Positions 10,625 to 63,291 of a stretch of 64,000 bases of DNA are shown in pieces. A program made the translations under genes and the position numbers. This DNA is from an uncultured Alphaproteobacteria bacterium (GTDB taxonomy: Bacteria > Pseudomonadota > Alphaproteobacteria > Rhodobacterales > Rhodobacteraceae): positions 37,431-101,430 of the forward strand of contig CACAMI010000003.1 of NCBI GenBank assembly GCA_902533625.1, in the 5' to 3' direction. How positions within the stretch are numbered: position 1 is the stretch's first letter; each line of letters starts with the position of its first letter. The notes beneath the pieces were generated by a model. That model was given only the letters and a program-made list of their open reading frames with translations, had not been told where the DNA came from and ran no database searches.

Positions 10625-10738
10625 ATAATTTGAAATCTTTGCAGATTCGATTAACAAAGATCCTATCGATGTTATTTGGTTTGAAGGAAAATTGAATATG
10701 TATAATTTTGAAGAAAAAAAAATAAATAGGGAGAAAAA

Positions 10739-11887
10739 ATGATTAATAAGACAATTAAAATACTTACAAGTTCAGCTGTTTTAACAGCGACAGCGCTAAC
10801 CAGCTCTGCTTTTGCAGATGTCAAAGTTGGTATGATTACTACACTTTCCGGTGGAGGAGCAGGCTTAGGAATTGATGTGCGCGATGGTTTTATGCTGGCA
10901 ATTAAACAATCTGGACGCACGGATATTGAAGTGGTGATTGAAGACGATCAGCGTAAACCTGATATTGCTGTGCAGTTAGCTGATAAGATGGTACAATCAG
11001 AGAAGGTCGATGTTCTAACAGGCATAATATGGTCAAACCTTGCAATGGCAGTTGTGCCGTCTGTTACCGCTCAAGGAAAATTTTATCTTTCACCAAATGC
11101 TGGTCCGTCAGCTCTAGCAGGCGCTGGTTGCCATAAGAATTACTTTAACGTTGCATGGCAGAATGACAATCTGCATGAAGCGGCGGGTGCTTACGCAAAT
11201 GGTGCAGGACACAAAAATAGCTTCATTCTAGCACCAAACTACCCTGCGGGAAAAGATGCCCTAACGGGTTATAAGCGCTTCTTTTCTGGTGATTTGGCTG
11301 GAGAAATATTTACAAAGCTTGGACAAACGGATTATGCAGCAGAAATAGCCCAAATTCGCGCTTCCAATGCTGACAGTGTATTCTTTTTCCTACCAGGAGG
11401 CATGGGGATTTCTTTTCTTAAGCAATATGCATCTTCTGGTGTGGACCTCCCTGTAGTAGGGCCCGCATTTTCATTTGATCAAGGTATACTGCAAGCAGTA
11501 GGAAGTGCAGCACTGGGTGTAGTGAATACATCTCAATGGAATAAAGATATAGATAATCCAACGAATAATGCCTTTGTGGAAAGCTTCAAAGCTGAATACG
11601 GACGACTACCCTCACTGTATGCGTCTCAGGGTTTTGATACAGCAAATCTACTTATTTCGGCAGTTGCAACTTCCGATGTAAAAGACGCAGACTCCTTCCG
11701 TAAAGCGTTAGAGGCTGCAAATTTTGATTCTACTCGTGGTGATTTTAAGTTCGGATCAAATCATCATCCTGTGCAAACTATATATGCTCGAAAAGTAATC
11801 AAAGAAGGTGATATTTTTACGAACATGATTATAGGTACCGCGCTTGAAAATCATTCGGATGCTTATGCAAAGGAATGTAAATTTTAA
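10739..11887 (+). CDS. ABC transporter periplasmic substrate-binding protein, LivK/branched-chain-amino-acid type (type I PBP)
   Basis: Signal peptide MINKTIKILTSSAVLTATALTSSAFA, then KVGMITTLSGGGAGLG, typical of the Leu/Ile/Val-binding family. Followed by permease and ATPase genes. Confidence 0.85.
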   Translation: MINKTIKILTSSAVLTATALTSSAFADVKVGMITTLSGGGAGLGIDVRDGFMLAIKQSGRTDIEVVIEDDQRKPDIAVQLADKMVQSEKVDVLTGIIWSNLAMAVVPSVTAQGKFYLSPNAGPSALAGAGCHKNYFNVAWQNDNLHEAAGAYANGAGHKNSFILAPNYPAGKDALTGYKRFFSGDLAGEIFTKLGQTDYAAEIAQIRASNADSVFFFLPGGMGISFLKQYASSGVDLPVVGPAFSFDQGILQAVGSAALGVVNTSQWNKDIDNPTNNAFVESFKAEYGRLPSLYASQGFDTANLLISAVATSDVKDADSFRKALEAANFDSTRGDFKFGSNHHPVQTIYARKVIKEGDIFTNMIIGTALENHSDAYAKECKF

Positions 11888-11900
11888 ATTATAACAAATG

Positions 11901-11921
11901 GGTGCAGCTAATAGCTGCACC
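11901..11921 (+). promoter_or_regulatory. Perfect intercistronic stem-loop after the binding-protein gene
   Basis: GGTGCAGCT-AAT-AGCTGCACC, a 9-bp perfect stem with a 3-nt loop, 14 nt after the stop at 11887 and 19 nt before the permease ATG. No T-tract follows. Confidence 0.6.
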
Positions 11922-11939
11922 CAAACCTGTGGTGTTTTC

Positions 11940-12860
11940 ATGTCTTTTGCGCTTTTTGCTGAACAGGTATTAAACGGCCTGCAATCGGGAATTATGCTCT
12001 TTGTAATGGCTGCAGGCTTAACATTGATTTTTGGTGTGATGGGATTGATAAACCTTGCACATGGCTCCCTCTACATGGTTGGTGCATTTGCTGCTGCAGC
12101 TGCTGCAGCTTGGACAGGTTCCTTTCTTTTGGCTCTCGTAGCCGCTCTTACAGGTGCAGCGTTGGTTGGCATGTTTGTAGAAATGCTCGTCATTAGAAGA
12201 CTTTATGATCGTGATCATCTTGATCAGGTGCTGGCAACTTTCGCACTAATTCTAATTTTCTCCGAAGGAACAAGGTTTTTCTTCGGCTCTTTTCCACTCT
12301 TTCTGGATGTACCAAAAGTTATCGCTGGTCCAATTAATTTGCCGATTGGCATTGAATATCCGGTTTACCGACTAATTATTATAGGAGTTGGGCTTTGCGT
12401 AGCACTTGGCCTTTGGCTCTTGATTTCAAAAACAAGGTTGGGAGTTCAAATCCGTGCGGGGAAAAATGACCGTGAGATGATCGCTGCTTTGGGTGTTAAT
12501 ATTTCAGCTCTGTATACTTTTGTTTTTGCTATTGGAGCAGGTCTTGCTGGTCTGGCTGGTGCTTTGGTAGGAGCCATTCAATCGGTTCAGGTAGGAATGG
12601 GTGAACCAGTCTTAATCCTTGCTTTCGTTGTAATCGTAATTGGCGGAATAGGTTCGATAAAAGGGGCATTTATCGGTGCTATATTAGTAGGGTTGACTGA
12701 CACACTTGGGGGAATCTTTTTACCGGAGCTTTTTAAACTCTTTATGGAGGGTTCAATTGCTACCTCTCTGGGATCAGCACTTGCATCAATGTTAATCTAT
12801 ATATTAATGGCTGTTATTTTGGTTTGCCGTCCTCAAGGGTTATTTGGAGTGCAAGGATGA
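11940..12860 (+). CDS. ABC transporter permease, LivH-like
   Basis: N-terminus MSFALFAEQVLNGLQSGIMLF is typical of LivH. Multi-TM and hydrophobic. The ATG at 11940 is in frame with the longer track ORF. Confidence 0.85.
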   Translation: MSFALFAEQVLNGLQSGIMLFVMAAGLTLIFGVMGLINLAHGSLYMVGAFAAAAAAAWTGSFLLALVAALTGAALVGMFVEMLVIRRLYDRDHLDQVLATFALILIFSEGTRFFFGSFPLFLDVPKVIAGPINLPIGIEYPVYRLIIIGVGLCVALGLWLLISKTRLGVQIRAGKNDREMIAALGVNISALYTFVFAIGAGLAGLAGALVGAIQSVQVGMGEPVLILAFVVIVIGGIGSIKGAFIGAILVGLTDTLGGIFLPELFKLFMEGSIATSLGSALASMLIYILMAVILVCRPQGLFGVQG

Positions 12861-13846
12861 TATTAACCCGTGAGAATATACTAAATTTCGTAATAACAGC
12901 TGGACTGATTTTAGTGCCAATTTATGCGGTTATAGTGGAGGAGCCATTTACCATTACATTGGCAACCCGTGCTGTGATCTTCTCACTAGCCGCTGTCGGT
13001 CTCAATATTGCATTGGGCCTTGGTGGGATGGTTAGTCTTGGCCATGCTGTATTCTTCGGCCTTGGTGGATACACAATGGGTATCCTTGCCTTTCATGCTC
13101 AAAGCTACATCCCATTATTCGAGTGGCCAATTTTGATTGAAGGGACAAAGCAGATGCTTGTCGTCTGGCCACTGGCTATGATAATTTCAGCCATAGCTGC
13201 ATTTGTTATTGGTTTGTTATCGCTACGTACGGGCGGTGTATATTTCATTATGATCACCCTGGCTTTTGGTCAGATGTTTTTTTTCTTTTCTATCTCTTGG
13301 TCAGCTTATGGTGGTGAGGACGGTTTATCTATTTATGTGCGAAATCAATTCCCGCTCGTCAACACACTCGTGCCAATACAATTTTATGCTATTTGTTTAG
13401 CTATTCTAATGTTGGCTCTTTGGATTAATGCTCGGCTTGCAAAATCTTCTTTCGGCTTGGCCCTAAGTGCGGCTCGGCAAAATACTGAACGTGTCCGGAA
13501 TGTAGGTTTGGATCCTACAAGTATCAAATTGGTAGCATTTGTGATTTCAGGAGCAATAACAGGGCTTGCTGGCGCTTTATTTGCTGACCTTAACCGGTTT
13601 GTCAGTCCTACAATGTTCAGTTGGCAGCTCTCAGGTGAGATTATGGTTTTCATTATTATTGGTGGAATAGGAAGACTTTACGGACCCGTATTAGGGGCAA
13701 TTATCTTTGTAACTCTCGAGCATTTTTTAGGTGGAATATCGGAATATTGGTTGGTATTTTTAGGGCTTCTTTTGCTATTAATTGTTCTTTTTAGTCGTGG
13801 AGGTCTGGTTGGACTACTGGTTGGGCGGGAGCGTGTCCATGAATAA
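12857..13846 (+). CDS. ABC transporter permease, LivM-like
   Basis: Hydrophobic multi-TM protein with LGLGGMVSLGHAVFFGLGGY. ATGA overlap with the LivH-like stop. Confidence 0.85.
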   Translation: MILTRENILNFVITAGLILVPIYAVIVEEPFTITLATRAVIFSLAAVGLNIALGLGGMVSLGHAVFFGLGGYTMGILAFHAQSYIPLFEWPILIEGTKQMLVVWPLAMIISAIAAFVIGLLSLRTGGVYFIMITLAFGQMFFFFSISWSAYGGEDGLSIYVRNQFPLVNTLVPIQFYAICLAILMLALWINARLAKSSFGLALSAARQNTERVRNVGLDPTSIKLVAFVISGAITGLAGALFADLNRFVSPTMFSWQLSGEIMVFIIIGGIGRLYGPVLGAIIFVTLEHFLGGISEYWLVFLGLLLLLIVLFSRGGLVGLLVGRERVHE

Positions 13847-14588
13847 AACGATTCTAAAAACCTATAATTTAACCAAGAATTTTGGAGCGCTACGCGCCAG
13901 TGATAAAATATCTATTGACCTCCGCGTGGGTGAAATTCATGGATTGATTGGACCAAATGGAGCTGGAAAAACTACTTTGATAGCACAGATTATGGGTGGT
14001 TTGAAACCCGACTCTGGTTTGATTGAATTTGATGGCACCGATATTACTTCCTTTACAACGGAGTCGAGAGCGCAGGCTGGTCTTGGGCGCACCTTTCAAA
14101 TCTCCCAATTGGCCATGGACCAAACTGTTTTGCAAAATGTAGTCCTTGGAACAGTAGGTGAAAGGGGGGGTGTTTGGAACTTTTGGCGACCCGTCTTGGC
14201 AATTCAGGAGTTGCGAGAGCGCGCAATGGAGTCTCTCTCTGATGTAGGGCTAGCTGACAAGGCGGCAACACCCGTTTCTGAACTTAGCCACGGCGGGCGA
14301 AGGCAGTTAGAAGTTGCCATTGCCCTGACCTTAAATCCCAAAGCATTCGTAATGGACGAACCTATGGCAGGTCTTGGTAGTGATGGGTCAAAAAAAATGA
14401 CAATTTTTCTTGATAACTTGCGTACTCGAGCACCAATATTGCTTGTAGAGCATGATATGGAAGCTGTTTTTGCATTGTCAGATCGTATTTCGGTTTTAGT
14501 GTCCGGTATGGTGATCGCAACGGGCAGCGTGGATCAAATAAGAAATGATGCGCGCGTGCGGAAGGCATATCTTGGAGAGGGTTCATGA
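13839..14588 (+). CDS. ABC transporter ATP-binding protein, LivG-like
   Basis: Walker A GPNGAGKTT, signature LSHGGRRQLE, Walker B FVMDEP. The start overlaps the LivM-like stop by 8 nt. Confidence 0.9.
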   Translation: MNKTILKTYNLTKNFGALRASDKISIDLRVGEIHGLIGPNGAGKTTLIAQIMGGLKPDSGLIEFDGTDITSFTTESRAQAGLGRTFQISQLAMDQTVLQNVVLGTVGERGGVWNFWRPVLAIQELRERAMESLSDVGLADKAATPVSELSHGGRRQLEVAIALTLNPKAFVMDEPMAGLGSDGSKKMTIFLDNLRTRAPILLVEHDMEAVFALSDRISVLVSGMVIATGSVDQIRNDARVRKAYLGEGS

Positions 14589-15274
14589 CATTATTACTAT
14601 TGGAAAATGTTACTGCAAGTTATGGAAAGGCCCAAGCACTTTTTGATGTTAACTTAAACCTGAAGGAGGGTGAGCTTATGGCATTGATGGGGCGAAATGG
14701 AATGGGGAAATCTACGACCGTAAAGGTGATAATGCGTATGTTAAGGGGCACAGGAAATTTACTATTCGAGGGTAGAGATATTATGGGTCTACCCAGCCAT
14801 CGTGTTGCCCAAATGGGTCTAGGACTAGTTCCTGAGGGGCGCCGATGTTTTAGAGATCTTACGGTGGCTGAAAATCTAAGTGCGTCAGCGCGTTTGGGAT
14901 ATTGGAGCCTTCCACGGATTTTTGAATTGTTTCCTCGCTTGGGAGAACGACAGGTGCAAGTTGCAGACTCACTATCTGGCGGCGAGCAGCAAATGCTTTC
15001 TATTGGGCGTGCGTTGATGACAAATCCTCGTCTTTTAATACTAGATGAGGCAACTGAAGGGCTTGCACCAATCGTTCGTCAGGAAATTTGGGTTGCAATT
15101 GGTAAGTTAAAGGCAGAGACAGGAATTGCGATTCTGCTAATTGATAAATCCATAAAAGAACTCCGTGAGATTTGTGATTCTGCTACATTAATCGAACGTG
15201 GAAAAACAGTTTGGACGGGTTCTATGAAGAGTTTGGACTCACAAACCCTCGATAGATATGTAGGGGTGTCCTGA
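14585..15274 (+). CDS. ABC transporter ATP-binding protein, LivF-like
   Basis: Walker A GRNGMGKST, signature LSGGEQQML, Walker B LILDEAT. ATGA overlap with the upstream gene. Confidence 0.9.
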   Translation: MTLLLLENVTASYGKAQALFDVNLNLKEGELMALMGRNGMGKSTTVKVIMRMLRGTGNLLFEGRDIMGLPSHRVAQMGLGLVPEGRRCFRDLTVAENLSASARLGYWSLPRIFELFPRLGERQVQVADSLSGGEQQMLSIGRALMTNPRLLILDEATEGLAPIVRQEIWVAIGKLKAETGIAILLIDKSIKELREICDSATLIERGKTVWTGSMKSLDSQTLDRYVGVS

Positions 15275-15986: not shown

Positions 15987-16910
15987 TTAATCAGGAACCT
16001 CTCCCCCGTTTTCTAACCAATACCGACAGTCAAAACTTAGGGATTTTTTTGTTGCAGCCTCGTAAAGCTGTAACTCTTCCTCTGCTAGTAAATCTCTCCA
16101 TCTACCATTTATTCCTTCATTTAAAAAAGTCTTGCCCCCCCCTTTCCAACTATTGCCACCATCTGGTACATATGAGTCTGCATTAGCCCGCATTGCCTCA
16201 AAACTTATAGAGTTTTGCACATTTTTTATTTCATCTGATGTAATTTCAATCTCTAAAAAGGATGCTACTTTCTTTATACAAGAAAACAGATCCTTTTTCA
16301 TATCAGCATAGTGAAGAAAAATGATATTAGGTAAATCTCTATAATCCCACCAAGACTGCACTCCGCTTAGATGAGACCAAAAAGGATAACCGTCATTCTC
16401 CCAATCAAACCAGCCTTTTGTGCACCAGTTTCTCCAAAAAATCTTAAAATTTGCGGGTGGATTAGGAAACTTATCACCCACTAAATTTGGCAGATTATTA
16501 ATACTCTCGTAAACAGCATCTGTATAGTTTAGGTAGTGGTTCCATATCGATAAAGCCACATCTCTTCCATCTCGGCCCACATAAATATATTTAATTTTGG
16601 GGAAAAATGATAAGGCATTTAAGGGAAGATGGGTTTTCAGAAAGCGTCTATGTTTCTGTTGATTTATTTCCTTCATTACTAATTCAATTGGAACACTTCT
16701 GTCATCAATCCATGGACTTAGCTCTGAAACTTTTTTTGGGAATTTATTATTAGGAAATAATAAATGGGCAACAAGAGCCTGAGTCCAAGTGGTGCCAGTC
16801 TTCATAGTTGAAGCGATACAAATGTCGTCTACCCGTGGTTCATAGGTTAACCACCTTTCACTGTCTATATGGTGGTTTTGATAAATTATATCTTTACTCG
16901 GATAATCCAT
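15987..16910 (-). CDS. Cytosolic-type (Sulfotransfer_1) PAPS-dependent sulfotransferase, copy A
   Basis: 5'-PSB loop MKTGTTWTQ, catalytic-His block LKTHLP, RDGRDVALS, and a 3'-PB-like NEGINGRWRDL. Confidence 0.8.
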   Translation of the reverse strand: MDYPSKDIIYQNHHIDSERWLTYEPRVDDICIASTMKTGTTWTQALVAHLLFPNNKFPKKVSELSPWIDDRSVPIELVMKEINQQKHRRFLKTHLPLNALSFFPKIKYIYVGRDGRDVALSIWNHYLNYTDAVYESINNLPNLVGDKFPNPPANFKIFWRNWCTKGWFDWENDGYPFWSHLSGVQSWWDYRDLPNIIFLHYADMKKDLFSCIKKVASFLEIEITSDEIKNVQNSISFEAMRANADSYVPDGGNSWKGGGKTFLNEGINGRWRDLLAEEELQLYEAATKKSLSFDCRYWLENGGEVPD

Positions 16911-16936
16911 TTTAAAGAATCTGTAGCATATTAGCC

Positions 16937-18091
16937 TTAGTTCTTCATTGTTTGCTGAATTAGTCGGTGAAAAAGATGTAAAACATGCTCACCTCTACCC
17001 GATAGATTGGAGTCTGCTATGATTGGTCCTTGGTCATAGCCAAATGATTTTAAACCTCTTTGAACACTCTCACATAAGCTAATATCTTCTTTGAACAAAA
17101 CATTTGATGTGTATAATCGTCGTTCTTCATTAAATTTACCGGATACTGATAATGAATGACCATTAAAGGTCGATTTTTCCAAGCTATATGGTCGTATTGA
17201 AGAAAAGTTGATAATCTCTGATCCTGGTAAAATATTAATAGTCGTATTTGGCCATAAAAACCAAAATATAGATTTCTTGAAAGGGGCATCTTTTTCAATT
17301 TTGTATGCCGAATTATTTTCCCTAACTTCCTCACATAATTGTCTTGCCCAAAGGCCAAATATGTCATGTTTGTATGAGTCCATACATAACATATCAGAAA
17401 AATCAGGATGGGCATGTTCGCAATGGTAACATTCTACATAATTATCTACCACGACTTTCCAACCTGCATTAATAATTGTTCCTCCCAATCCATTGTAATC
17501 TGACCTTGACTTGGAAACACCTAGCTGGTCAAAAAATGAAACACGTTTTCGAACATCTATTTCAAGATCAGGAACTAATTCACTTAATGGTGTCGCGTTA
17601 GGGTCAAGATTAACAAAAACGGCATCTAAAAAAACCTCCATTCTAACTGATTTAAGTTTGTAATCTTTTTTACTAAAATTCGACCTTTTATCTGCTCTTG
17701 GAGCACCCTTAAGGTTACCTGACTTTTCGTAGGTCCAAGCGTGGTAAGGGCATACTATCCCCCTTTCTACATTGCCAACACCTGCGGGTAATAACTCGTG
17801 AGCGCGGTGTTGACATACATTATAAAATGCCCTTAATTTTTTGTCTTCACCCAAGATAACAAAGATATTTTGGTCACAAATTATCTCTGAGATATAATCT
17901 CCTGGTTTTTCAAAAAAGCTGGTATGTCCAATATATTGCCAAGTCTTATAAAAAATCTTTTCTTTTTCAGCTTCAAAAACCTGCGGATCTGTATACATGT
18001 ACGAAGGTAGTGTAAAAGATTCTTCCGGCAAATCTGAGACAGGCTTTGTATATTTTTGAGCTGGCTTCAATTTAGATCCCTCCCATATCAA
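16937..18091 (-). CDS. Rieske [2Fe-2S] non-haem-iron oxygenase alpha subunit, choline-monooxygenase/GbcA/CntA-like subgroup
   Basis: Rieske motif CQHRAHEL-x-CPYHAWTY. Mononuclear iron motif DNYVECYHCEHAHP. C-terminal EDISLCESVQRGLKS block. TTG start. Confidence 0.85.
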   Translation of the reverse strand: MIWEGSKLKPAQKYTKPVSDLPEESFTLPSYMYTDPQVFEAEKEKIFYKTWQYIGHTSFFEKPGDYISEIICDQNIFVILGEDKKLRAFYNVCQHRAHELLPAGVGNVERGIVCPYHAWTYEKSGNLKGAPRADKRSNFSKKDYKLKSVRMEVFLDAVFVNLDPNATPLSELVPDLEIDVRKRVSFFDQLGVSKSRSDYNGLGGTIINAGWKVVVDNYVECYHCEHAHPDFSDMLCMDSYKHDIFGLWARQLCEEVRENNSAYKIEKDAPFKKSIFWFLWPNTTINILPGSEIINFSSIRPYSLEKSTFNGHSLSVSGKFNEERRLYTSNVLFKEDISLCESVQRGLKSFGYDQGPIIADSNLSGRGEHVLHLFHRLIQQTMKN

Positions 18092-18192
18092 AATATCTTG
18101 AAGATTTTTATATTTAAATCAAGGACCAAAATGACTTTTAGGTTTACTATAAAGGTATAAATTGAAATCAGTAATAAGTTGAGAAAATTTTT

Positions 18193-18816
18193 CTAACTTA
18201 TAAAAAGTTCTGAATCCGTCATTGCTCGGTACTTTTTGAGGCCATCCTGTATAGATGAGACATTTATAATAGCACTTTCGCAATTAATGTGGCTATTGGG
18301 TTGCCAGGCTCTTACAAATACGCTCATTCTATCTGTAAATGTGCCTGGGAAAACGCCGTATCTTTCGCCTTTGTCTTCTATTTTCCTATAAAAAGCATTC
18401 AACATTATAGTACCGCAGTCTCGGCAGAAAAGCCTTCCTATTCCACCGACCCTGGGGCTATCGTCAAAAGTTCGATAATTAGGATTTCCAGGTCCACCTT
18501 TTACTTGTTGTAGATGGTTAAGGCCTTCCAAAACAGTTATTTCAAAGTTGCCAGATTTCTTTTTTCCCGTACGACAATCTATGTTTGCGGTGCTACAGTA
18601 TATTACTTGATACATTGGTGCCGAGTGAGCTCGTCTACACGACCAGCAATGACAAAAAGCGGACATTTCTGGTGATTGCGTTTTAATATTGATCCTTACG
18701 GCACCACATATGCACATGGCCTGAGCTTCAGATTTGTCGCCAGAGGGATAAATTTTTTCTGAGAGAGAAACATCATCATGAGGATTAATTTGGCTTTCCA
18801 TATTTATATTTCTCAC
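18193..18816 (-). CDS. GFA (glutathione-dependent formaldehyde-activating enzyme)/CENP-V family zinc protein
   Basis: Cys-rich GFA pattern CICGAVR...FCHCWSCRRAHS and a second site CRDCGT. The start is either the GTG at 18816 (4-nt overlap with the upstream gene) or the ATG at 18801. Confidence 0.7.
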   Translation of the reverse strand: MRNINMESQINPHDDVSLSEKIYPSGDKSEAQAMCICGAVRINIKTQSPEMSAFCHCWSCRRAHSAPMYQVIYCSTANIDCRTGKKKSGNFEITVLEGLNHLQQVKGGPGNPNYRTFDDSPRVGGIGRLFCRDCGTIMLNAFYRKIEDKGERYGVFPGTFTDRMSVFVRAWQPNSHINCESAIINVSSIQDGLKKYRAMTDSELFIS

Positions 18817-19124
18817 CCACGCTTTGCATTTTTAGTAAGTGAATTTACATAATGTAAGCTAACTTCACCTTGCATATGCCAATGGTCTTTAAAAACATTG
18901 GGGAAACCATCTAGCATTCGTTGCCTTGCCTCCAACAATCTTTCAGCGGTTTCTTCGTCTTTATAAATAGCAACTGACATACCAGATGAAGGTCCTGTTC
19001 TTATCAATATATGGGCGTTAGCTTCTGGCAGAGCCTTAGGGCAAACAATCTTATATTCATCTTCGAATTCGTCGGCCACCTGCTCAGACATATACTCAAC
19101 CATTGTTATTCTAGCCACAGTCAT
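18813..19124 (-). CDS. Small (103 aa) hypothetical protein, possibly a ferredoxin-like/ABM fold; paralogue of 19269..19577
   Basis: Shares the core T-x-P-S-S-G-M-S-x-x-I-Y-x-D-E-x-T with the neighbouring 102-aa ORF. The fold assignment is only a guess from size and pattern. Confidence 0.4.
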   Translation of the reverse strand: MTVARITMVEYMSEQVADEFEDEYKIVCPKALPEANAHILIRTGPSSGMSVAIYKDEETAERLLEARQRMLDGFPNVFKDHWHMQGEVSLHYVNSLTKNAKRG

Positions 19125-19268
19125 TTTTACTTTACCTATAAGATTATTTTCTATGATTTTACCGCTGTTAAACTAAGATTATCATTAAGGATTTGAGAGT
19201 CAAAATTAATAAGCCAAATGAACCAGCGTTATTTGTTTTTCTCCATTAAAACCGAATTCAAATTTGAC

Positions 19269-19577
19269 TTACTGATATTTACTGTATTCTAGGTTATTGC
19301 TGACAACTGATGAAACTTCTGCTTCTAGAATTGTTGTATGGACAATACTAGCTGACCATTCCTTAAAAACCTTATCACGGTCATCCGCCCCAATTTCAGA
19401 AGTTTTCTCATCCGGATATATTGTAAGACTCATTCCTGAAGACGGTGTGGTTTTAAGCACGTTGAATGAAACTGCAGATCCAAAAAGTTTCTTTCCATTT
19501 TGTGACAAAAACCCCAACATTTTTTCAGTCTCATTCTCATCGATAAAGTCAATCATTACGACTCTTCCCACTAACAT
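19269..19577 (-). CDS. Small (102 aa) hypothetical protein, paralogue of 18813..19124
   Basis: TTPSSGMSLTIYPDEKTSE versus TGPSSGMSVAIYKDEETAE in the neighbour. Same length and strand. Confidence 0.4.
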   Translation of the reverse strand: MLVGRVVMIDFIDENETEKMLGFLSQNGKKLFGSAVSFNVLKTTPSSGMSLTIYPDEKTSEIGADDRDKVFKEWSASIVHTTILEAEVSSVVSNNLEYSKYQ

Positions 19578-19680
19578 TTAAAACTCCTATGGATATATTT
19601 TGGTTTAGTTTCTTATTTTTTAGTTGCTATGATATATTTCAAGAATAGCAGAGGATCAAATAAGAGAGAACTAAAATTCA

Positions 19681-20604
19681 ATGTCTTGCTTTAATCTGGA
19701 AGATGCCCCCATTCGTCGTTATCAGCATTTGGACTGGGATTCAGGACGCTGGACTGGTTTCAAACCTAGGTCGGGTGATATCTATATTTGCACTTGTTAT
19801 AAATCAGGTACTACATGGACACAAATGATTGCAGCACTTCTCGTATTCCAAGAATTGGACTTCCCATTGCCTTTGAACGAATTATCTCCTTGGATTGATT
19901 TGGTGACGGATAGTACTGAAGAAATGCATAAAAGATTATCGGCTCAGAAGTATAGACGAATCTTGAAAACGCATACTCCCCTTGACGGGTTAAAATGGCA
20001 TGCTGATGCAAGATATCTATTTGTTGGGCGTGATCCACGAGATGTATTTGTTTCTATGATGAACCATCAAGATAATACGGATGTGCATGTTGAACGTAAA
20101 CTAGCTGCGGAAATGGGGAATCAGATAACGATCACTGATCTATTGGCAGATACGGAAGAGGAGCGGTTGAAGGATTGGTTGACTAGGGGTTACTTCGAAT
20201 GGGATAAAGATGGTTATCCCTATTGGTCTTTATTGCATCACGGGGAAACCTTTTGGCAGCATCGCAATCAGGAAAACATTCTAGTCCTTCATTACGGTGA
20301 AATGAAAAATGATCTGAATCGCGAAATGCGAAAAATTGCTGCGCACCTTTCTATAGAGATAGACGAAGAAATTTTTCCGGGTCTAGTTGAAGCCGCTAGT
20401 TTTGCATCAATGAAGAGAAACGCGGATGATCTCGCACCTGCGGCAGATGCAAATTTATGGAAGAATAATTCTGAATTCTTTGCAAATGGTACTAATGGTC
20501 AGTGGCAGGATCGCTGGAGTAAAGCAAATCTCCAGAGGTTATACGCTCTCTCTAATGAATACTCCATTGACTACATGGAATGGCTTTTAGAGAAAAAAAA
20601 TTAG
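19681..20604 (+). CDS. Cytosolic-type PAPS-dependent sulfotransferase, copy B
   Basis: YKSGTTWTQ (5'-PSB), LKTHTP (catalytic His), RDPRDVFVS, ANGTNGQWQDRW (3'-PB-like). Colinear along its length with copy A and also 307 aa. Confidence 0.8.
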   Translation: MSCFNLEDAPIRRYQHLDWDSGRWTGFKPRSGDIYICTCYKSGTTWTQMIAALLVFQELDFPLPLNELSPWIDLVTDSTEEMHKRLSAQKYRRILKTHTPLDGLKWHADARYLFVGRDPRDVFVSMMNHQDNTDVHVERKLAAEMGNQITITDLLADTEEERLKDWLTRGYFEWDKDGYPYWSLLHHGETFWQHRNQENILVLHYGEMKNDLNREMRKIAAHLSIEIDEEIFPGLVEAASFASMKRNADDLAPAADANLWKNNSEFFANGTNGQWQDRWSKANLQRLYALSNEYSIDYMEWLLEKKN

Positions 20605-21464: not shown

Positions 21465-21688
21465 TTCTCTCCTCCTTTAGTGGCTGACATTTGGCTCCAA
21501 GTATCTTTCTAAAAGTGCTGTTTTAATAAAAGGTTTCTTAAAATTACCATATGCCATTAATAATCTAATGAAATTTTTAGTGTGTAAATCAAATTTTTTA
21601 TCTTAATCCGATCAAATATATATAGTATAATTAATGAACTCTGATAGTATTTGATGATTAATATAGAAATCTTAGGGGTAGAGTGAAT

Positions 21689-22924
21689 ATGGTTTTAATT
21701 CCCGAAATGCCAGCTGTTGGACGTGGTTTCATTAGTCGGTTAGAACCACCTAATATTGAAGAATATTCTTGGATAAGTCCTAAGGCTTCTAAGGATCGTA
21801 GGGTTTCCGTGGTTTCAACAGCAGCAGTCTCAAACCGTGGAGAGAAACCTTTCTCTTGGTTGGCGAGAGATTATAGGACAATTAAAAAAAACGATAGAGA
21901 TTTGGTAATGACCCATGTTGCTGCTGAGTATGATCGTACTGCATGGCAACAAGATTTAAATACAATTATACCCTTAGACCGGTTGGAAGAAATGGCTTCT
22001 GAAAGGGAGATTGGATCGGTAGCTGAAAATCATTATGCTTTTATGGGTGCTGCTGACCCCCGTGATATGGAAAAATATGCTCTAGAAGTAGCAGGGAAAA
22101 TGAAGCAAGAAGCTGTAGATACAGTTTTTCTTGTTCCCGTCTGACCATTTTGTACGCGCGCCGTGTGCGGGCTCGCCCACATATTTGAATCTCAAGGTTT
22201 TTCTACGGTTCTTGTCGGCTTTGTCAGGGAACATATCGAGGTAATTAAGCCTCCACGAGGTTTGTGGTTAAACTTTCCGATGGGACGTCCTATGGGAAAG
22301 CCCAATGACCCAAAATATCAAAAGAAAGTAATTCGTGCAGCTTTTAATTTACTTGAAGCAAAATCAGGACCAGTTCTTGAAGATTTTCCAGATGAAATTC
22401 CTGTAAAACATGGAAGGATGGGTTATGCACTTCCGGTAGATCTAGTAACTAAAGTAAGTGAAATTGGTGACGTTGATCAATTATTGGAAGAAGTAGAGGC
22501 TGAGGTTTCAAGCCTTCACTCAGCTTATGTAAGTGGAAAAGCCTTTCGTGGAAGAACTACAGTAGGAGCTAGTGAAATGCCTATAAAAGAACTTCCTAAT
22601 TTCATAGCTGCTTTTGTAAAGGGGCAGAAACCGAACAGTCCAAGAAAAGGTGTTACAGCTATCCCTCAGCTTAAGCTGGTGGTGGAGGATTTGAACGCCT
22701 ATTACACTGAGGCAAGAATGTACGAAGACAATATTGACGATTTTGAAATTCTTGGTAAGTGGTTTTGGGAAGAGTCGAAGGCTGGAAAATTAATTTTGGC
22801 TTTAGAAGCAGTTTCTTTAGAGAGTGAGGATAAAGTTCTTCGGCAGATAGTGGAAATGTCCCTAATTACTCCCCGGTTTTGGTCTGAAGGCCCTCTTCCT
22901 GGCACTTCTGCTTCCGGATGGTAA
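21689..22924 (+). CDS. Glycine/sarcosine/betaine/D-proline reductase protein-B (GrdB/PrdB) family protein with an in-frame TGA (22142-22144), predicted selenocysteine, in a U-P-F-C motif
   Basis: Track ORFs 21683..22144 and 22163..22924 share a frame and are separated by only one stop (TGA). Read-through gives ...AVDTVFLVPV-U-PFCTRAVCGLAHIFESQGFSTVLVGF.... A GC-rich hairpin follows the TGA. Confidence 0.65.
22145..22185 (+). promoter_or_regulatory. Candidate bacterial SECIS hairpin downstream of the in-frame TGA
   Basis: Locally GC-rich CGCGCGCCGTGTGCGGGCTCGCCCAC in an AT-rich genome. Pairing 22163-22167 with 22178-22182 and 22169-22170 with 22176-22177, bulged C22168, 5-nt loop GCTCG about 27-31 nt after the TGA. 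Folded by eye only. Confidence 0.4.
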
Positions 22925-22968: not shown

Positions 22969-23862
22969 CTACAATTTATCTGTTTCTATAGGAAGGGTTT
23001 CATCCATTGCCCATTCACTCATAGAATTGTCATAAATCTGCAAGTTTTTAAATCCTAGCTGATAAAGAATAAAAGCATCGAGAGTAGCCGCTATCCCTCC
23101 TCCGCAGTAATTTAAAATTGTCTTGTCCGAAGAAATATCCATTGAATTAAAGATTTCAGCAGCCTCCTCTGGTTTTTTGAACTTACCTGTATTAGAGTCT
23201 ACAAGCTTATGAAAAGGAATATTCAAACTATTAGGTATTCTTCCGGGGCGGCCATATCTTGGATTTTCACCTGAATGGATATCTTTTGTTAATGCATTTA
23301 AAAGTATGCAGGACTTGTCCCCTATGGCCTTAAGAGTAGATTCCTTTCCGACAAAAATATTTTCTCTAAAGCTAGTGTTAAATTTTGCAGGATTAAATTT
23401 TCGGACACTATCTTCAGTTGGTAAGTCTAATCTGACCCACTCATCATATCCGCCATCCAATACAGAAATTTTTTCAAACCCCAATACAAAAAGCATCCAC
23501 CAAACCCGTGTTGCCCATTGCGTACCATTTCTAGAATATAAGACAATGTGAAAAGGATCGCCAACGCCTAGATTTTGAAACCTATTTTTTAGATCTAAGA
23601 AGCCTGGTAAAGTGAAACTATAGGGGCTTTCTTTTTTGGACAGATCATTCTGAAGATCTAAGAATGCAGAGCCAGGAATATGTGACTCTCTATATTTGGA
23701 AATACCACTTTCGACATCGTACGGTTTGCTAGGATCTTTGTCCCTATATAATAGGTAGGTTGTGCAGTCGAATACTCGAATGTTTTCATTATCAAGTCTC
23801 TTAGAGAGCCATTCACACTGTACGATATTCTCAGGATATTTCCATGTAACATCATTTTCCAT
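22969..23862 (-). CDS. Two-domain rhodanese sulfurtransferase (thiosulfate/3-mercaptopyruvate sulfurtransferase, SseA-like)
   Basis: 297 aa with tandem rhodanese domains. The active-site loop CGGGIAA in the C-terminal domain resembles the MST-type CG[SG]G[VI]TA. Confidence 0.8.
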   Translation of the reverse strand: MENDVTWKYPENIVQCEWLSKRLDNENIRVFDCTTYLLYRDKDPSKPYDVESGISKYRESHIPGSAFLDLQNDLSKKESPYSFTLPGFLDLKNRFQNLGVGDPFHIVLYSRNGTQWATRVWWMLFVLGFEKISVLDGGYDEWVRLDLPTEDSVRKFNPAKFNTSFRENIFVGKESTLKAIGDKSCILLNALTKDIHSGENPRYGRPGRIPNSLNIPFHKLVDSNTGKFKKPEEAAEIFNSMDISSDKTILNYCGGGIAATLDAFILYQLGFKNLQIYDNSMSEWAMDETLPIETDKL

Positions 23863-23888
23863 TAGGTCCCTTTCAAGTCTCTTTGCTT

Positions 23889-24293
23889 TTAAATTGGGTT
23901 AAGGTCGTAGTCATCATCTAACACCTGTTCCAACCAATCAGCCACCTTGCCATCCAAAGCTTCCTGAATAGCCAGATGTTCCATATTTGAATCTGGGGCA
24001 GCCCCGTGCCAATGCTCTTCACCTGGAGGGATCCAAACTGTATCTCCTACATTAATTATTTTTGGAGATTCATTTCGGAGACCTACTAAACCAACGCCAC
24101 TTAGCACTAAAAGAGTTTGCCCCAAGGGATGGGTGTGCCAAGCTGTCCGCGCTCTAGGTTCAAATGAAACTTTTATTGCTCTTACCCGTGCTGGATCCGG
24201 TGCTTCTATAATAGCATCTTGCATAACATTTCCATGAAACCAATCGGATGATGCTTTTCTTTGAGGCCTGCTCCCAACTTTAAATATTTTCAA
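23889..24293 (-). CDS. Cupin-domain protein
   Basis: Cupin motifs WHTHPLGQTLLVLSG and GDTVWIPPGEEHWHGA. 4-nt overlap with the upstream TfdA-like gene. Confidence 0.7.
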   Translation of the reverse strand: MKIFKVGSRPQRKASSDWFHGNVMQDAIIEAPDPARVRAIKVSFEPRARTAWHTHPLGQTLLVLSGVGLVGLRNESPKIINVGDTVWIPPGEEHWHGAAPDSNMEHLAIQEALDGKVADWLEQVLDDDYDLNPI

Positions 24294-25198
24294 TATTCTA
24301 CCTCAGCCTTTTTAATGTTTAAAAGGGTTGGAATATTTGGCACCCCATCTTTTTCAGTTAGAGACACACAGATGCTAGCCAATGTTCTTGGCTCGGTATA
24401 TGACCAGGGGCGACCTCTATGCAAAATAGACCGTTCATCCCAAATCAATACGTCTCCTACCTCCCAATCATGGGAGTACACATATTTATCCTGCGTTGCA
24501 AAACAAATTATATCTTTAATTACTTTCTCTGAATCTTTTTCGGACATGCCTTCTATTTGGTAGACGTGTGAGGCTATATAAATTGATTCTGCACCAGTTA
24601 CCGGGTTCTTAATAATTGAGTCCCATTCCTGAGGTTTCCATCTTGATATTTTATGAGATTTTGCTAATTCCTCATCAATTTTTTTCCTTGATTGCATAAA
24701 ACTATGGAAGAATTTTTTATTCTTTATTTTTTCTAGAATATTCTTTGGCAATTCGTTAAGAGCAATTCTAGTTGAGGCGAGTTCTGTTTGCCCGCCAGAG
24801 GAAGGTACGGTTTTAGCTGCAATAATATTTGCCAAAGCTGGGATTGGCAAAAATGTACTGTCGGTGTGCCAAAGCATGTTTGCCTTGAGTTCAAGGGTCC
24901 GCATATCATTTTCTGAAAAAACAGTACCATCTGCATCCTCGTTTGAGACTTTTGGAAGCTCAAATTTCACATAAGAGTTTTTTGCCATAGCCTCTCTATT
25001 TTCAAGTGGCCCAAAAAGGCTTGCAAACTTTATATGGGTCTCCTCTGAAAACTCTTGATCTTTAAATAGAATTGATGAATGTTTCTCGAACAAATCTCTT
25101 ATTTCGGGATAGAGATTATTATTTGTAACATCGTCTAAGTTTATTCCATCAATTATTACGCCAAATTTCGGGTGAAGAGGAATAGTTTTCATAATCAT
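24290..25198 (-). CDS. TfdA/TauD-family Fe(II)/2-oxoglutarate dioxygenase
   Basis: HxD iron motif in WHTDSTF, followed by VPSSGGQTELAS (TfdA-like). Distal His in SILHRGRP. Confidence 0.8.
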   Translation of the reverse strand: MIMKTIPLHPKFGVIIDGINLDDVTNNNLYPEIRDLFEKHSSILFKDQEFSEETHIKFASLFGPLENREAMAKNSYVKFELPKVSNEDADGTVFSENDMRTLELKANMLWHTDSTFLPIPALANIIAAKTVPSSGGQTELASTRIALNELPKNILEKIKNKKFFHSFMQSRKKIDEELAKSHKISRWKPQEWDSIIKNPVTGAESIYIASHVYQIEGMSEKDSEKVIKDIICFATQDKYVYSHDWEVGDVLIWDERSILHRGRPWSYTEPRTLASICVSLTEKDGVPNIPTLLNIKKAEVEY

Positions 25199-25288
25199 AA
25201 TTTTCCGAGTGGGATTTATTTTCTTCTAATAAAAAATAATTGCAGTAATATGCATAGCTGTAAATAATATTTTTTGAGATCTTTTATT

Positions 25289-26077
25289 ATGAGTACAGCT
25301 GATTTGGAAAGATTTGTGAATTTAGAGGCCTACCCTCTTCAAAATGTAAAATTTGTTCAGAAATGTAATGAGACTTTAAATATTGAAGGAGCCCTTACGT
25401 TAAAAAATTTTTTGAATGAGGAAACTGTTGAGCAATTGGTGAAGGAAGCCAAAGAAAATCAACATAAGGCCTTTTATTCAAACTCTACGCACAATATTTA
25501 TTTAACGCCACAAGATGAAAATTTTCCTGAGGATCATATTTTTAATACCCAAATAACATCATCAAAAGGATGTATTACAACAGACCAAATTCCTGATTCT
25601 TCGGCTTTGAAAACAATTTATAAATCGGATATTTTCAAGAAATTTATAGCTGAAATAGTAGGTGAAAAAATACTATACGAATATGAAGATCCATTGTCCT
25701 CTATTAACGTACACTATGCGAAAGAAGGTCAAGAACTTGGATGGCATTTTGATAACTCCAGCTTTGCAGTAACACTATTACTTCAGAAACCATTAGGTGG
25801 TGGTATTTTCGAATATGTGAAAAATGTAAGAAACTCTGAATCAGGAGAAATGGGATTTAAAGAAGCAGAAGAAATTGTATCAGGAAGGTCAAAACCCTCT
25901 GTCTTAAATATTGAGCCGGGTACGCTTGTACTTTTCAGAGGAATGAATTCAATGCACAGGGTTACACCAACGGTTGGAGATAGAACTCGCTTTCTGGTAG
26001 TTTTTGCCTATAACGCAAAGCCTGGTGTATCTTTGTCAAAGTCAGCCCAGAAAACTTTTTATGGAAGAGTAGCTTAA
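25289..26077 (+). CDS. 2OG-Fe(II) oxygenase superfamily protein (prolyl-hydroxylase-like fold)
   Basis: HxD in GWHFDNS, distal His in SMHRVTP, and Arg shortly after (GDRTRF). ATG at 25289 within a longer TTG-initiated track ORF. Confidence 0.6.
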   Translation: MSTADLERFVNLEAYPLQNVKFVQKCNETLNIEGALTLKNFLNEETVEQLVKEAKENQHKAFYSNSTHNIYLTPQDENFPEDHIFNTQITSSKGCITTDQIPDSSALKTIYKSDIFKKFIAEIVGEKILYEYEDPLSSINVHYAKEGQELGWHFDNSSFAVTLLLQKPLGGGIFEYVKNVRNSESGEMGFKEAEEIVSGRSKPSVLNIEPGTLVLFRGMNSMHRVTPTVGDRTRFLVVFAYNAKPGVSLSKSAQKTFYGRVA

Positions 26078-27400: not shown

Positions 27401-27410
27401 AAAGTATCTC

Positions 27411-62493: not shown

Positions 62494-63291
62494 TTACTTA
62501 AACCTTTTTTGTGGTCTGAATTGACCCCATGCGATAAAGCCACCGTTTCTATAGTTTGCTTTTCCATATTTGAATATATTTGTGCCATCAGTATCTGTTA
62601 CAAAACCTCCGGCAGCCCTAAGAATAGCATCACCTGCAGCTGTGTCCCATTCCATTGTAGGTCCGAACCTTGGGTAAACGTCAGCTTCACCAGTGGCGAC
62701 GAGGCAGAATTTGAGAGAAGATCCAATGGATACTGTCTTTTCAATATTATGAGAAATTAACCAGTTATTTGTTTCTTGATCTCGGTGTGAGGCACTGGCT
62801 ACGGCGATTATATTTAGGTTCTTAGTTTTAGATAAATTTAAACGCTTTGTCGGAATATCTCGTTCTTCGGAGAAACTATTTAAGGTTATTCCAGAGAAGT
62901 ATCTACCAAGCGCTGGTGCATAAACTATCCCAAAGATTGGGAGATTATTCTGAATTAATGCTATATTGACCGTGAAGCTGCCCTTACCATCTTTTTTTAA
63001 AAACTCTTTTGTTCCATCTAAGGGGTCAACTAAAAAAAAAGTTTCAGTAGCTTGTATCTTATGGCTTTCAGAATTTTCTTCTGAAATTATTGGTATGTCA
63101 GGGCACAGGTCTTTCAAAGCCGGTATTATGATATTTTCTGACAATTTATCAGCTTCAGTAACTGGAGATCCATCAGACTTTTTGTTAAACTCAAAATCTT
63201 TTTCATATACTTCCATAACCGCACTTCCTGCTCGTATAACAACTGACTCCAAATCTTGTTTAAGATTTTCTAGTAAATTGACTTTGATCAT
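62494..63291 (-). CDS. cysQ: 3'(2'),5'-bisphosphate nucleotidase (inositol-monophosphatase superfamily, CysQ-like)
   Basis: SEEN, LVDPLDGTKEF, WDTAAGDAIL motifs. The N-terminus from the ATG at 63291 aligns with the typical CysQ start. Confidence 0.7.
   Translation of the reverse strand: MIKVNLLENLKQDLESVVIRAGSAVMEVYEKDFEFNKKSDGSPVTEADKLSENIIIPALKDLCPDIPIISEENSESHKIQATETFFLVDPLDGTKEFLKKDGKGSFTVNIALIQNNLPIFGIVYAPALGRYFSGITLNSFSEERDIPTKRLNLSKTKNLNIIAVASASHRDQETNNWLISHNIEKTVSIGSSLKFCLVATGEADVYPRFGPTMEWDTAAGDAILRAAGGFVTDTDGTNIFKYGKANYRNGGFIAWGQFRPQKRFK

What the first reader, a model, noticed from the sequence alone, without database searches (positions are those of the whole stretch)
15987..20604. 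Twin cytosolic-type sulfotransferases bracket a Rieske oxygenase, a GFA-family protein and two small paralogues: an undescribed hydroxylate/demethylate-and-sulfate module?
Two full-length paralogous sulfotransferases, both 307 aa, sit in opposite orientation at the ends of a 4.6-kb block. Each has an intact PAPS 5'-PSB loop (K[TS]GTTWTQ), a catalytic His (KTH[LT]P) and a 3'-PB-like G-x-W-x-D segment. Between them are three elements:
- a choline-monooxygenase/GbcA/CntA-type Rieske oxygenase alpha subunit with both metal motifs intact;
- a GFA/CENP-V zinc protein;
- two roughly 100-aa paralogues.

Eukaryote-like Sulfotransfer_1 enzymes are uncommon in free-living marine bacteria, and their acceptors are mostly unknown. 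Rieske enzymes of this subgroup hydroxylate or N/O-demethylate small polar metabolites and release formaldehyde. That gives a rationale for an adjacent glutathione-dependent formaldehyde-activating homologue. No reductase or ferredoxin partner for the Rieske protein is encoded here. A PAP phosphatase (cysQ, 62494..63291) is also in the window, consistent with active PAPS turnover. Together this suggests synthesis or remodelling of a sulfated small molecule.
Basis: inference. Interest (0 to 1): 0.7.

Follow-up and report, generated by a model that had tools for sequence, protein, structure and literature searches.

The report
Lineage-specific sulfotransferase cluster, optional Rieske gene
The six genes are real and look functional, but they occur together only in one group of ocean Roseobacter-type bacteria and the oxygenase gene is missing in close relatives, so this is a strain-variable set of small-molecule enzymes rather than a demonstrated new sulfation pathway.

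Summary
These are two 307-aa SULT-type sulfotransferases (38% identical), a Rieske oxygenase, a GFA-family zinc protein and two ~100-aa paralogues, which I now identify as ABM/dimeric-ferredoxin-fold proteins.

The "module" reading is only weakly supported:
- The block occurs only in one species-level lineage of marine Paracoccaceae.
- In two close relatives (L001, L016) the Rieske gene is absent. The difference is a clean 1,276-bp versus 57-bp indel inside a recombination patch.
- Outside this lineage, each component family has different neighbours.
- None of 79 other genome loci carrying an ST1-family gene has GFA, the small proteins, a comparable Rieske gene or a second sulfotransferase within 10 kb.
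- The Rieske enzyme is a CntA-like group Va quaternary-ammonium oxygenase. That clade does C–N cleavage or hydroxylation, not demethylation, so the formaldehyde rationale for GFA fails.
- SULT-type enzymes are not rare in bacteria: this family is found in at least 580 species genomes.

One link survives. A Rieske–ST1 adjacency recurs, rearranged, in a second lineage at 65–67% identity.

The acceptor substrates remain unknown. The finding is of moderate to low interest.

The parts
15987..16910 (-). ST1: PAPS-dependent cytosolic-type (SULT-fold) sulfotransferase, 307 aa
   Evidence: PF00685 at 1.5e-43. PAPS-binding and catalytic-His motifs are invariant in the family. AlphaFold model pLDDT 87.5; TM 0.70-0.76 to SULT1E1 and S4 sulfotransferase. 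dN/dS 0.17. The 5' half (16400-16912) is only 68-87% identical to L001, against 95-99% in the flanks. It is 99% identical in the Rieske-bearing contig L096.
16937..18091 (-). Group Va (CntA-like) Rieske non-haem iron oxygenase alpha subunit. Probable start at TTG 18070 (377 aa). Strain-variable.
   Evidence: Matches PDB 6y8j (CntA) at E = 3.6e-69 over the full length. All cofactor ligands, the pi-cation Tyr, the bridging Glu and the Cys pair are conserved; four pocket residues differ. Absent from L001 and L016; present at 99% identity in L096. dN/dS 0.09 against L097.
16913..18188 (.). 1,276-bp segment (Rieske gene plus spacers) replaced by 57 bp in the related haplotype L001. This is the indel at the centre of a recombination patch.
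   Evidence: blastn breakpoints and identity profile. No flanking direct repeats and no tRNA genes in the window.
18193..18816 (-). Long (207-aa) GFA/CENP-V-family zinc protein. Its start overlaps the stop of small A by 4 bp.
   Evidence: PF04828 at 1.1e-13. Cysteines C35, C37, C55, C57, C60, C131 and C134 are invariant in an 11-sequence family alignment. The family has only 13 database hits. dN/dS 0.15.
18813..19124 (-). Small A: 103-aa ABM / dimeric ferredoxin-like fold protein
   Evidence: No Pfam match. AlphaFold model pLDDT 87 with beta-alpha-beta-beta-alpha-beta topology. Foldseek matches 2pd1, 2od4, SnoaB and LsrG at TM about 0.7. The family has 17 database hits.
19269..19577 (-). Small B: 102-aa paralogue of small A
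   Evidence: 27% identical to small A, E = 8e-11. Its 90% cluster has 77 member sequences in marine metagenomes.
19681..20604 (+). ST2: second SULT-type sulfotransferase, 307 aa, transcribed divergently from small B
   Evidence: PF00685 at 1.6e-38. 38% identical to ST1. The best full-length representative among 1.84 billion proteins is 47% identical. dN/dS 0.10.

Best explanation
The block is a lineage-specific accessory cluster in a low-GC pelagic Paracoccaceae (Roseobacter-group) bacterium. It encodes individually functional small-molecule enzymes that are not an obligate pathway unit.

Shown:
- ST1 and ST2 are SULT-fold enzymes with the complete machinery for binding PAPS and transferring sulfate to a small acceptor.
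- The Rieske protein is a CntA-like group Va oxygenase. Its pocket is built for a quaternary-ammonium head group but differs from that of carnitine monooxygenase.
- The Rieske gene is present in only some strains. It entered or left through homologous recombination together with the 5' half of ST1 and the 3' end of GFA.

Inferred:
- The minus-strand genes small B, small A, GFA, (Rieske) and ST1 are probably co-transcribed, given the 4-bp overlap and 26-bp spacer.
- The two sulfotransferases O-sulfate two different hydroxylated small metabolites, either phenolic or hydroxylated onium compounds.
- The Rieske enzyme oxidises an imported trimethylammonium-type compound, using a reductase encoded elsewhere.
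- Where Rieske and ST1 are adjacent, they may act on related substrates.
- GFA and the ABM-fold proteins have no demonstrable link to sulfation or to formaldehyde.
For: - Domain, motif and fold evidence.
- Purifying selection on all genes.
- Lineage restriction: only L001, L016 and L096 share the block.
- Different contexts elsewhere. The small-protein family sits in arrays of ~100-aa genes without sulfotransferases or beside a 280-aa protein of unknown function near a fatty-acid desaturase. The long GFA family sits beside an aldehyde dehydrogenase or a photolyase. ST1 homologues at 65% identity sit beside LysR and a DMSP lyase.
- No recurrent partner across 83 ST1-family loci.
- Rieske indel and recombination patch. 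ST1's dS of 0.49 is 2-15 times that of neighbouring genes.
- 90% cluster sizes: Rieske 51 members, ST2 161, small B 77.
- Rieske orthologues in 14 of 16 loci lie in an OpuAC-type ABC transporter-Rieske-SDR-MBL operon, which fits a quaternary-amine catabolic role.
- Rieske-ST1 adjacency recurs in L097 and L098 in a different orientation.
- The source organism is a Paracoccaceae MAG.
Against: - Tight spacing and shared orientation of five genes could still reflect a real pathway that is simply young and confined to one lineage.
- Absence of synteny in distant lineages does not rule out joint function here.
- The recurrent Rieske-ST1 adjacency hints at more coupling than "independent enzymes".
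- No expression or biochemical data exist.
- Promoter and terminator scans were uninformative.
- Whether the genome can synthesise PAPS could not be checked.
Confidence: 0.6

Rival explanations
1. First reader's model. All six genes form one pathway in which the Rieske enzyme hydroxylates or demethylates a polar metabolite, GFA handles the released formaldehyde, and the two sulfotransferases sulfate the product.
For: Genes are compactly arranged, five on one strand, with a 4-bp overlap and a 26-bp spacer. All genes are intact and constrained. CysQ is in the window.
Against: - The Rieske gene is absent from otherwise identical blocks.
- The group Va signature predicts C-N cleavage or hydroxylation, not demethylation (PMC7948474).
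- GFA is retained without the Rieske gene, and its homologues sit elsewhere with an aldehyde dehydrogenase or a photolyase.
- The prototype GFA does not catalyse S-hydroxymethylglutathione formation (PMC4682968).
- The full set is not syntenic outside one lineage.
Confidence: 0.07
2. Partial coupling. The CntA-like Rieske oxygenase and the ST1-type sulfotransferase work on the same class of hydroxylated quaternary-ammonium (or sulfonium) osmolyte, for example sulfating choline- or carnitine-like compounds or degrading their relatives. The ABM, GFA and ST2 genes are bystanders.
For: - Rieske-ST1 adjacency occurs in two lineages 65-67% identical, in different orientations.
- The Rieske gene and its linked ST1 allele travel together in the recombination patch.
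- Rieske orthologues are linked to OpuAC-type betaine transporters.
- The pi-cation Tyr is conserved.
- A GrdB/PrdB-like selenoprotein gene flanks the region in both lineages, and an mgsABC-like gene set flanks it in the window.
Against: - Only 2 of 16 Rieske-orthologue loci have a sulfotransferase, and those two are one lineage.
- None of 79 ST1-family genome loci outside this lineage has a comparable Rieske gene; the single hit is 24% identical and about 9 kb away.
- The two lineages share neighbouring genes, so the adjacency may be inherited rather than independently selected.
- The SULT homologues closest in fold act on phenols and steroids.
Confidence: 0.18
3. Phenol or quinol handling. 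The sulfotransferases conjugate phenolic intermediates or xenobiotics arising from adjacent aromatic catabolism, and the ABM-fold proteins act as quinol or aromatic monooxygenases.
For: - The closest structural relatives of ST1 are phenol and oestrogen sulfotransferases, including S4 bound to p-nitrophenyl sulfate.
- ABM-fold relatives include SnoaB and other aromatic oxygenases.
- The window encodes a salicylyl-CoA 5-hydroxylase and an aryl-CoA ligase cluster, the homogentisate pathway, and tryptophan dioxygenase and kynureninase.
- Characterised bacterial SULTs mostly act on phenolics (PMC12135136, PMC13449962; abstracts only).
Against: - An ABC transporter operon and RidA separate the block from the aromatic genes.
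- No such linkage is conserved in other ST1-family loci.
- The ABM fold is functionally promiscuous, and the best matches have unknown function.
Confidence: 0.15

Closest known systems
Eukaryotic cytosolic sulfotransferases (SULT1E1, SULT1A1) and the S4 sulfotransferase of PDB 8xgz/8xjp (source organism not checked here)
   Same: Pfam PF00685. The 5'-PSB loop, catalytic His, 3'-PB motif and GxxGxW segment are conserved. The overall fold matches at TM 0.70-0.76.
   Different: Only 20-26% identical. The acceptor is unknown. ST1 and ST2 belong to a large, uncharacterised bacterial clade found in at least 580 species genomes, including Paracoccaceae and nearly all Nitrosomonas sampled.
Carnitine monooxygenase CntA (Acinetobacter baumannii, PDB 6y8j), Rieske group Va
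   Same: Full-length homology at E = 3.6e-69. The Rieske ligands, 2-His-1-Asp triad, bridging Glu205, pi-cation Tyr203, Cys206/Cys209 pair, Phe216, Tyr225 and Asn270 are all conserved.
   Different: Pocket residues differ: F258S, Y295H, Y315T and F319L. No cntB reductase is adjacent. Orthologues sit with an OpuA-type transporter, an SDR and an MBL hydrolase rather than carnitine genes. The score against the NCBIfam GbcA model is far below its cutoff (139 against 670).
GFA (glutathione-dependent formaldehyde-activating enzyme, Paracoccus denitrificans) / CENP-V family
   Same: PF04828 match. The CxC, CxCxxC and CxxC patterns that would ligate two zinc ions are present and invariant.
   Different: The Pfam match covers only residues 32-90. 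An insertion of about 60 residues and a C-terminal extension give 207 aa. No formaldehyde-metabolism genes are adjacent. The prototype's own catalytic role is disputed (PMC4682968).
ABM / dimeric alpha-beta barrel proteins (NE2512 2pd1, marine metagenome protein 2od4, SnoaB, LsrG)
   Same: About 100 aa, beta-alpha-beta-beta-alpha-beta fold, TM about 0.7.
   Different: 10-17% sequence identity and no Pfam hit. The closest structures have unknown function, and no catalytic residues can be assigned.

Membership tests
Cytosolic-type PAPS-dependent sulfotransferase (Pfam Sulfotransfer_1) | Significant match to PF00685 above the gathering score | tested here: met
   ST1 scores 149.5 bits and ST2 133 bits, against a cutoff of 22.
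Cytosolic-type PAPS-dependent sulfotransferase (Pfam Sulfotransfer_1) | 5'-PSB loop (K-x-G-T-T-W), catalytic His (K-T-H), and 3'-PB Arg/Ser motif (R-D-x-R-D-V-x-x-S) | tested here: met
   K37, G39, T40, T41, W42, K92, T93, H94, R113, D114, R116, D117, V118 and S121 are invariant in 14 sequences that include both ST1 and ST2.
Cytosolic-type PAPS-dependent sulfotransferase (Pfam Sulfotransfer_1) | SULT fold | tested here: met
   Model pLDDT 87.5 and pTM 0.90. Foldseek gives E = 4e-15 and TM 0.70-0.76 to SULT1E1, S4 and SULT1B1.
Cytosolic-type PAPS-dependent sulfotransferase (Pfam Sulfotransfer_1) | PAPS-dependent sulfuryl transfer to an acceptor | not testable with these tools
   Needs an enzyme assay. 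Whether the genome can synthesise PAPS also could not be checked.
Rieske oxygenase group Va (quaternary-ammonium oxidising; CntA, CMO, OxyBAC) | Rieske CxH...CxxH ligands and a 2-His-1-carboxylate iron site | tested here: met
   C93, H95, C114 and H117; H223, H228 and D336.
Rieske oxygenase group Va (quaternary-ammonium oxidising; CntA, CMO, OxyBAC) | Aromatic residue at CntA position 203 (Asn in clade Vb), bridging Glu205, and the Cys206-x-x-Cys209 pair | tested here: met
   Y218, E220, C221 and C224 align to these positions. Criteria are taken from PMC7948474 and PMC10952381.
Carnitine monooxygenase CntA (specific function) | Carnitine pocket residues Phe258, Tyr295, Tyr315 and Phe319, and an adjacent cntB reductase | tested here: not met
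   The aligned residues are S274, H312, T328 and L332. No reductase is in the window. Not filed as CntA.
Glycine betaine monooxygenase GbcA (NCBIfam NF058607) | Score above the equivalog cutoff | tested here: not met
   139.4 bits against a cutoff of 670, matching the N-terminal half only.
GFA / CENP-V family (PF04828) | Pfam match and the seven zinc-ligand cysteines | tested here: met
   51.6 bits against a cutoff of 24.3. C35, C37, C55, C57, C60, C131 and C134 are invariant.
GFA / CENP-V family (PF04828) | Glutathione-formaldehyde activation activity, or genomic linkage to flhA/fghA formaldehyde genes | tested here: not met
   No such neighbours in the window or in homologue loci. Activity itself is not testable here.
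ABM / dimeric alpha-beta barrel superfamily | Ferredoxin-like beta-alpha-beta-beta-alpha-beta fold of about 100 aa | tested here: met
   DSSP elements E2-11, H14-31, E37-44, E47-54, H57-72 and E78-88. There are 122 PDB matches at E <= 1e-3, and the top-ranked matches are ABM/Dabb-type proteins.
Conserved biosynthetic or catabolic gene cluster (the 'module' as a unit) | Co-occurrence of the component genes across independent lineages | tested here: not met
   Found only in L001, L016 and L096, which belong to the same lineage. It is absent from the 79 other ST1-family genome loci and from loci of small-protein and GFA homologues.

The most novel reading that the evidence does not exclude
The recurrent pairing of a CntA-like group Va Rieske oxygenase with an ST1-type sulfotransferase marks an undescribed bacterial route that makes or remodels a sulfated quaternary-ammonium osmolyte in pelagic Roseobacters. 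An example would be a bacterial PAPS-dependent choline- or hydroxy-betaine O-sulfotransferase. This would give a first acceptor for a SULT family present in hundreds of bacterial species, including nearly all Nitrosomonas sampled.
Probability: 0.12. Interest if true: 0.65.

Novelty: new member of a known kind. Interest (0 to 1): 0.3.

Why it matters
If the sulfotransferases have a defined marine acceptor, that would assign a function to a large uncharacterised bacterial SULT clade and would add a source of sulfated metabolites to the ocean sulfur cycle. As it stands, the finding's main value is negative. The appealing six-gene pathway is not conserved. Its oxygenase is a strain-variable add-on of the CntA type, and the formaldehyde logic does not hold. 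The presence/absence polymorphism of the Rieske gene offers a natural experiment: Rieske-plus and Rieske-minus strains could be compared directly.

Tried and rejected
1. I considered that the small proteins are substrates for tyrosine sulfation, because they share a PSSGMS..IY.DE motif. I rejected this. They model confidently as folded ABM-type domains, with the Tyr at the end of a beta-strand. Their family also occurs without sulfotransferases.

2. I looked for a conserved partner gene of the ST1 family across 83 loci. Only generic AMP-binding, SDR and TrkH families, plus synteny within Nitrosomonas, turned up.

3. I looked for mobile-element signatures at the Rieske indel. There are no flanking repeats and no tRNA genes in the window.

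4. Promoter and terminator scans gave counts no better than shuffled sequence.

5. Literature searches for characterised members of this sulfotransferase clade in Roseobacter, Nitrosomonas or choline sulfation found nothing directly relevant.

6. An exact lookup of ST1 in the contig index failed, although neighbouring proteins are on record.

7. I searched for a CntB-like reductase among the window ORFs of at least 120 aa. I scanned most of them directly, and the L001 gene table covers 5983-28125. None was found.

Full report
**Observation**

All six ORFs exist at the stated coordinates. Pfam assigns Sulfotransfer_1 to both 307-aa proteins (1.5e-43 and 1.6e-38). It assigns Rieske plus Ring_hydroxyl_A to the 384-aa protein and GFA to the 207-aa protein. 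It assigns nothing to the two ~100-aa ORFs.

ST1 and ST2 are 38% identical. The small proteins are 27% identical, E = 8e-11. In a 14-sequence alignment containing both sulfotransferases, the PAPS 5'-PSB loop (KxGTTW), the catalytic KTH, the 3'-PB RDxRDVxxS motif and the C-terminal GxNGxW are invariant.

The Rieske start is more likely the TTG at 18070, behind a GGGAGGG Shine-Dalgarno sequence, giving 377 aa. Database clusters hold both the 377-aa and 384-aa forms.

dN/dS between the window and the related contig L001 is 0.08-0.40 for ST1, GFA, small A, small B and ST2. For the Rieske gene against L097 it is 0.09. All six are therefore constrained coding genes.

**What each part is**

ST1 models confidently (pLDDT 87.5, pTM 0.90). 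It superposes on small-molecule cytosolic SULTs: S4 sulfotransferase bound to PAP and p-nitrophenyl sulfate, SULT1E1 and SULT1B1, at TM 0.70-0.76. By sequence it is only distantly related to them (E about 1e-20).

The Rieske protein is a full-length homologue of carnitine monooxygenase CntA (6y8j, E = 3.6e-69). I mapped the alignment onto the residues defined in the CntA structure papers (PMC7948474, PMC10952381). The following are conserved:
- the Rieske ligands
- the His208/His213/Asp323 iron triad
- the bridging Glu205
- the pi-cation Tyr203
- the Cys206/Cys209 pair
- Phe216, Tyr225 and Asn270

Phe258, Tyr295, Tyr315 and Phe319 are replaced by Ser, His, Thr and Leu. This places the protein in group Va, with CntA, choline monooxygenase and OxyBAC, which carry out C-N cleavage or hydroxylation. 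It is not in clade Vb (GbcA, Stc2), which has Asn at position 203 and demethylates. Its score against the GbcA model is far below the cutoff.

The GFA-like protein has all seven zinc-ligand cysteines, invariant across its small family.

Small A models as a beta-alpha-beta-beta-alpha-beta dimeric-ferredoxin (ABM) domain with pLDDT 87. Its best matches are NE2512 and a marine metagenome protein, both of unknown function, followed by SnoaB and LsrG.

**Context and conservation**

Exact-sequence lookups place the window in a marine Paracoccaceae MAG, on a 146-kb NCBI contig.

- **L001.** This 49.6-kb ENA contig is collinear with the window from about 6 to 28 kb at 96-98% nucleotide identity. It carries ST2, small B, small A, GFA and ST1 with no Rieske gene. 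Window 16913-18188 (1,276 bp) is replaced there by 57 bp.
- **L016.** This contig shows the same Rieske-less arrangement.
- **L096.** This Tara contig has GFA, Rieske (99%), ST1 (99%) and RidA (100%), so both haplotypes circulate.

Identity to L001 falls from 95-99% to 68-87% across the 5' half of ST1, and to 86% at the 3' end of GFA. ST1's dS of 0.49 is 2-15 times that of its neighbours. This is a recombination patch centred on the indel. It has no flanking repeats, and the window contains no tRNA genes.

The 90% clusters hold 51 member sequences for the Rieske protein, 161 for ST2 and 77 for small B. This is a rough indication that the Rieske haplotype is the minority.

**Beyond this lineage the synteny dissolves**

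- **ST1 family.** It is large: 709 or more clusters and at least 580 loci in species-representative genomes. These include Paracoccaceae, nearly all Nitrosomonas sampled, Myxococcota, Dehalococcoidia and Cellvibrionales. Of the 80 loci fetched, only L016 has GFA, a small-protein homologue or a second sulfotransferase within 10 kb. The only other Rieske-type hit is a 24%-identical gene about 9 kb from the sulfotransferase in L061.
- **Neighbour clustering.** Across 83 loci no consistent partner emerged.
- **Closest outgroup.** Sulfotransferases at 65% identity sit in a LysR-ST-DMSP-lyase context.
- **Small-protein family.** With 17 hits, it occurs in arrays of ~100-aa genes, or beside a 280-aa protein of unknown function near a fatty-acid desaturase, without sulfotransferases.
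- **Long GFA family.** With 13 hits, it sits next to an aldehyde dehydrogenase or a photolyase.
- **ST2.** It has no full-length relative above 47% identity among 1.84 billion representatives.

**The one recurrent link**

In L097 and L098 a Rieske orthologue (67%) is divergently adjacent to an ST1 orthologue (65%). That sulfotransferase lies directly upstream of a GrdB/PrdB-like gene, and a SelB-like gene is nearby.

The other 14 of 16 loci in this Rieske clade instead carry a conserved operon: an OpuAC-type ABC transporter, then Rieske, SDR, MBL hydrolase, EamA and an acyl-CoA ligase. This supports a role in quaternary-amine catabolism for the clade. It also shows that the clade generally lacks an adjacent reductase.

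Because the L097 lineage shares flanking genes with the window lineage, the adjacency may be inherited rather than independently selected.

**Interpretation**

1. The Rieske gene is optional.
2. It belongs to the clade that does not demethylate.
3. GFA remains where the Rieske gene is absent. Even the prototype GFA does not catalyse formaldehyde activation (PMC4682968).

CysQ is genuine but lies 42 kb away and is a housekeeping gene. The claim of rarity is wrong.

I therefore favour, at about 0.6, a lineage-specific accessory cluster of individually functional enzymes. The minus-strand genes are probably co-transcribed, there are two sulfotransferases with different unknown acceptors, and the quaternary-amine oxygenase is strain-variable.

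Two narrower hypotheses remain open. One is Rieske-ST1 coupling on hydroxylated onium compounds (about 0.18). The other is sulfation of phenolics from the surrounding aromatic catabolism (about 0.15). That catabolism includes a salicylyl-CoA 5-hydroxylase, the homogentisate pathway, and tryptophan dioxygenase and kynureninase.

**Novelty**

Each gene is a new member of a known family. The arrangement is lineage-specific and unproven as a unit. Interest is moderate to low. The most useful leads are the widespread uncharacterised bacterial SULT clade and the natural Rieske-plus versus Rieske-minus polymorphism.

Noticed in passing
window 21683-22924 (+): Two ORFs, called separately, form one GrdB/PrdB-like gene interrupted by an in-frame TGA at 22142-22144 (..LVPV-U-PFCTRAVCG..). 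It is probably a selenoprotein in an aerobic marine alphaproteobacterium. In L097 the orthologue lies directly downstream of a sulfotransferase, and L098 has a SelB-wing protein nearby.
   Followed up: partly
window 3865-15274: A salicylyl-CoA 5-hydroxylase/oxidoreductase (PRK08255, 1268 bits against a cutoff of 1078) lies with an enoyl-CoA hydratase, an acyl-CoA dehydrogenase, a benzoate-CoA-ligase-family enzyme and a Liv-type ABC transporter. This is a CoA-dependent aromatic acid catabolic cluster immediately upstream of the block.
   Followed up: partly
window 26084-28993 (-): A three-gene GltB-like set: a GATase_6 protein, an FwdC-like protein (which I take to be the GXGXG type) and a Glu_synthase FMN-domain protein. 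From my own knowledge it resembles N-methylglutamate synthase (mgsABC) of methylamine metabolism. I did not test this.
   Followed up: no
window 22969-26077: A run of sulfur- and oxygenase-type genes: an SseA-like rhodanese, a cupin, a TauD-family dioxygenase and a HalD/WelO5-like 2OG oxygenase with no NCBIfam match.
   Followed up: no
L016 (CAJWLL010000053.1): This 4.1-kb contig carries the cluster but is binned in an 'uncultured Flavobacteriaceae' MAG. Every other named sequence from this lineage, and the closest ST1 homologues, come from Paracoccaceae or Rhodobacteraceae, so it is probably mis-binned.
   Followed up: partly
L024-L069 (Nitrosomonas loci): An ST1-family sulfotransferase at about 50% identity is present in nearly every Nitrosomonas genome sampled. 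It often has DUF455 and 4HBT thioesterase genes nearby. Its function is unknown.
   Followed up: partly
L002, L003, L135 (and L006-L008, L134): The closest outgroup sulfotransferases (65% identity to ST1) in Paracoccaceae sit next to a LysR regulator. In several loci a PF16867 DMSP-lyase gene and an MFS transporter are also adjacent.
   Followed up: partly
L009 1223-3260; L011; L012: In another Paracoccaceae MAG the small ABM-like family occurs in a tandem array of five ~100-aa genes. One of these is a SnoaL_2 protein, and no sulfotransferase is present.
   Followed up: partly
window 44405-51656 and 720-1658, 59218-60420: The window is rich in aromatic amino-acid catabolism. It encodes homogentisate 1,2-dioxygenase, fumarylacetoacetase, a MarR regulator, an aldehyde dehydrogenase, tryptophan 2,3-dioxygenase and kynureninase.
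   Followed up: no
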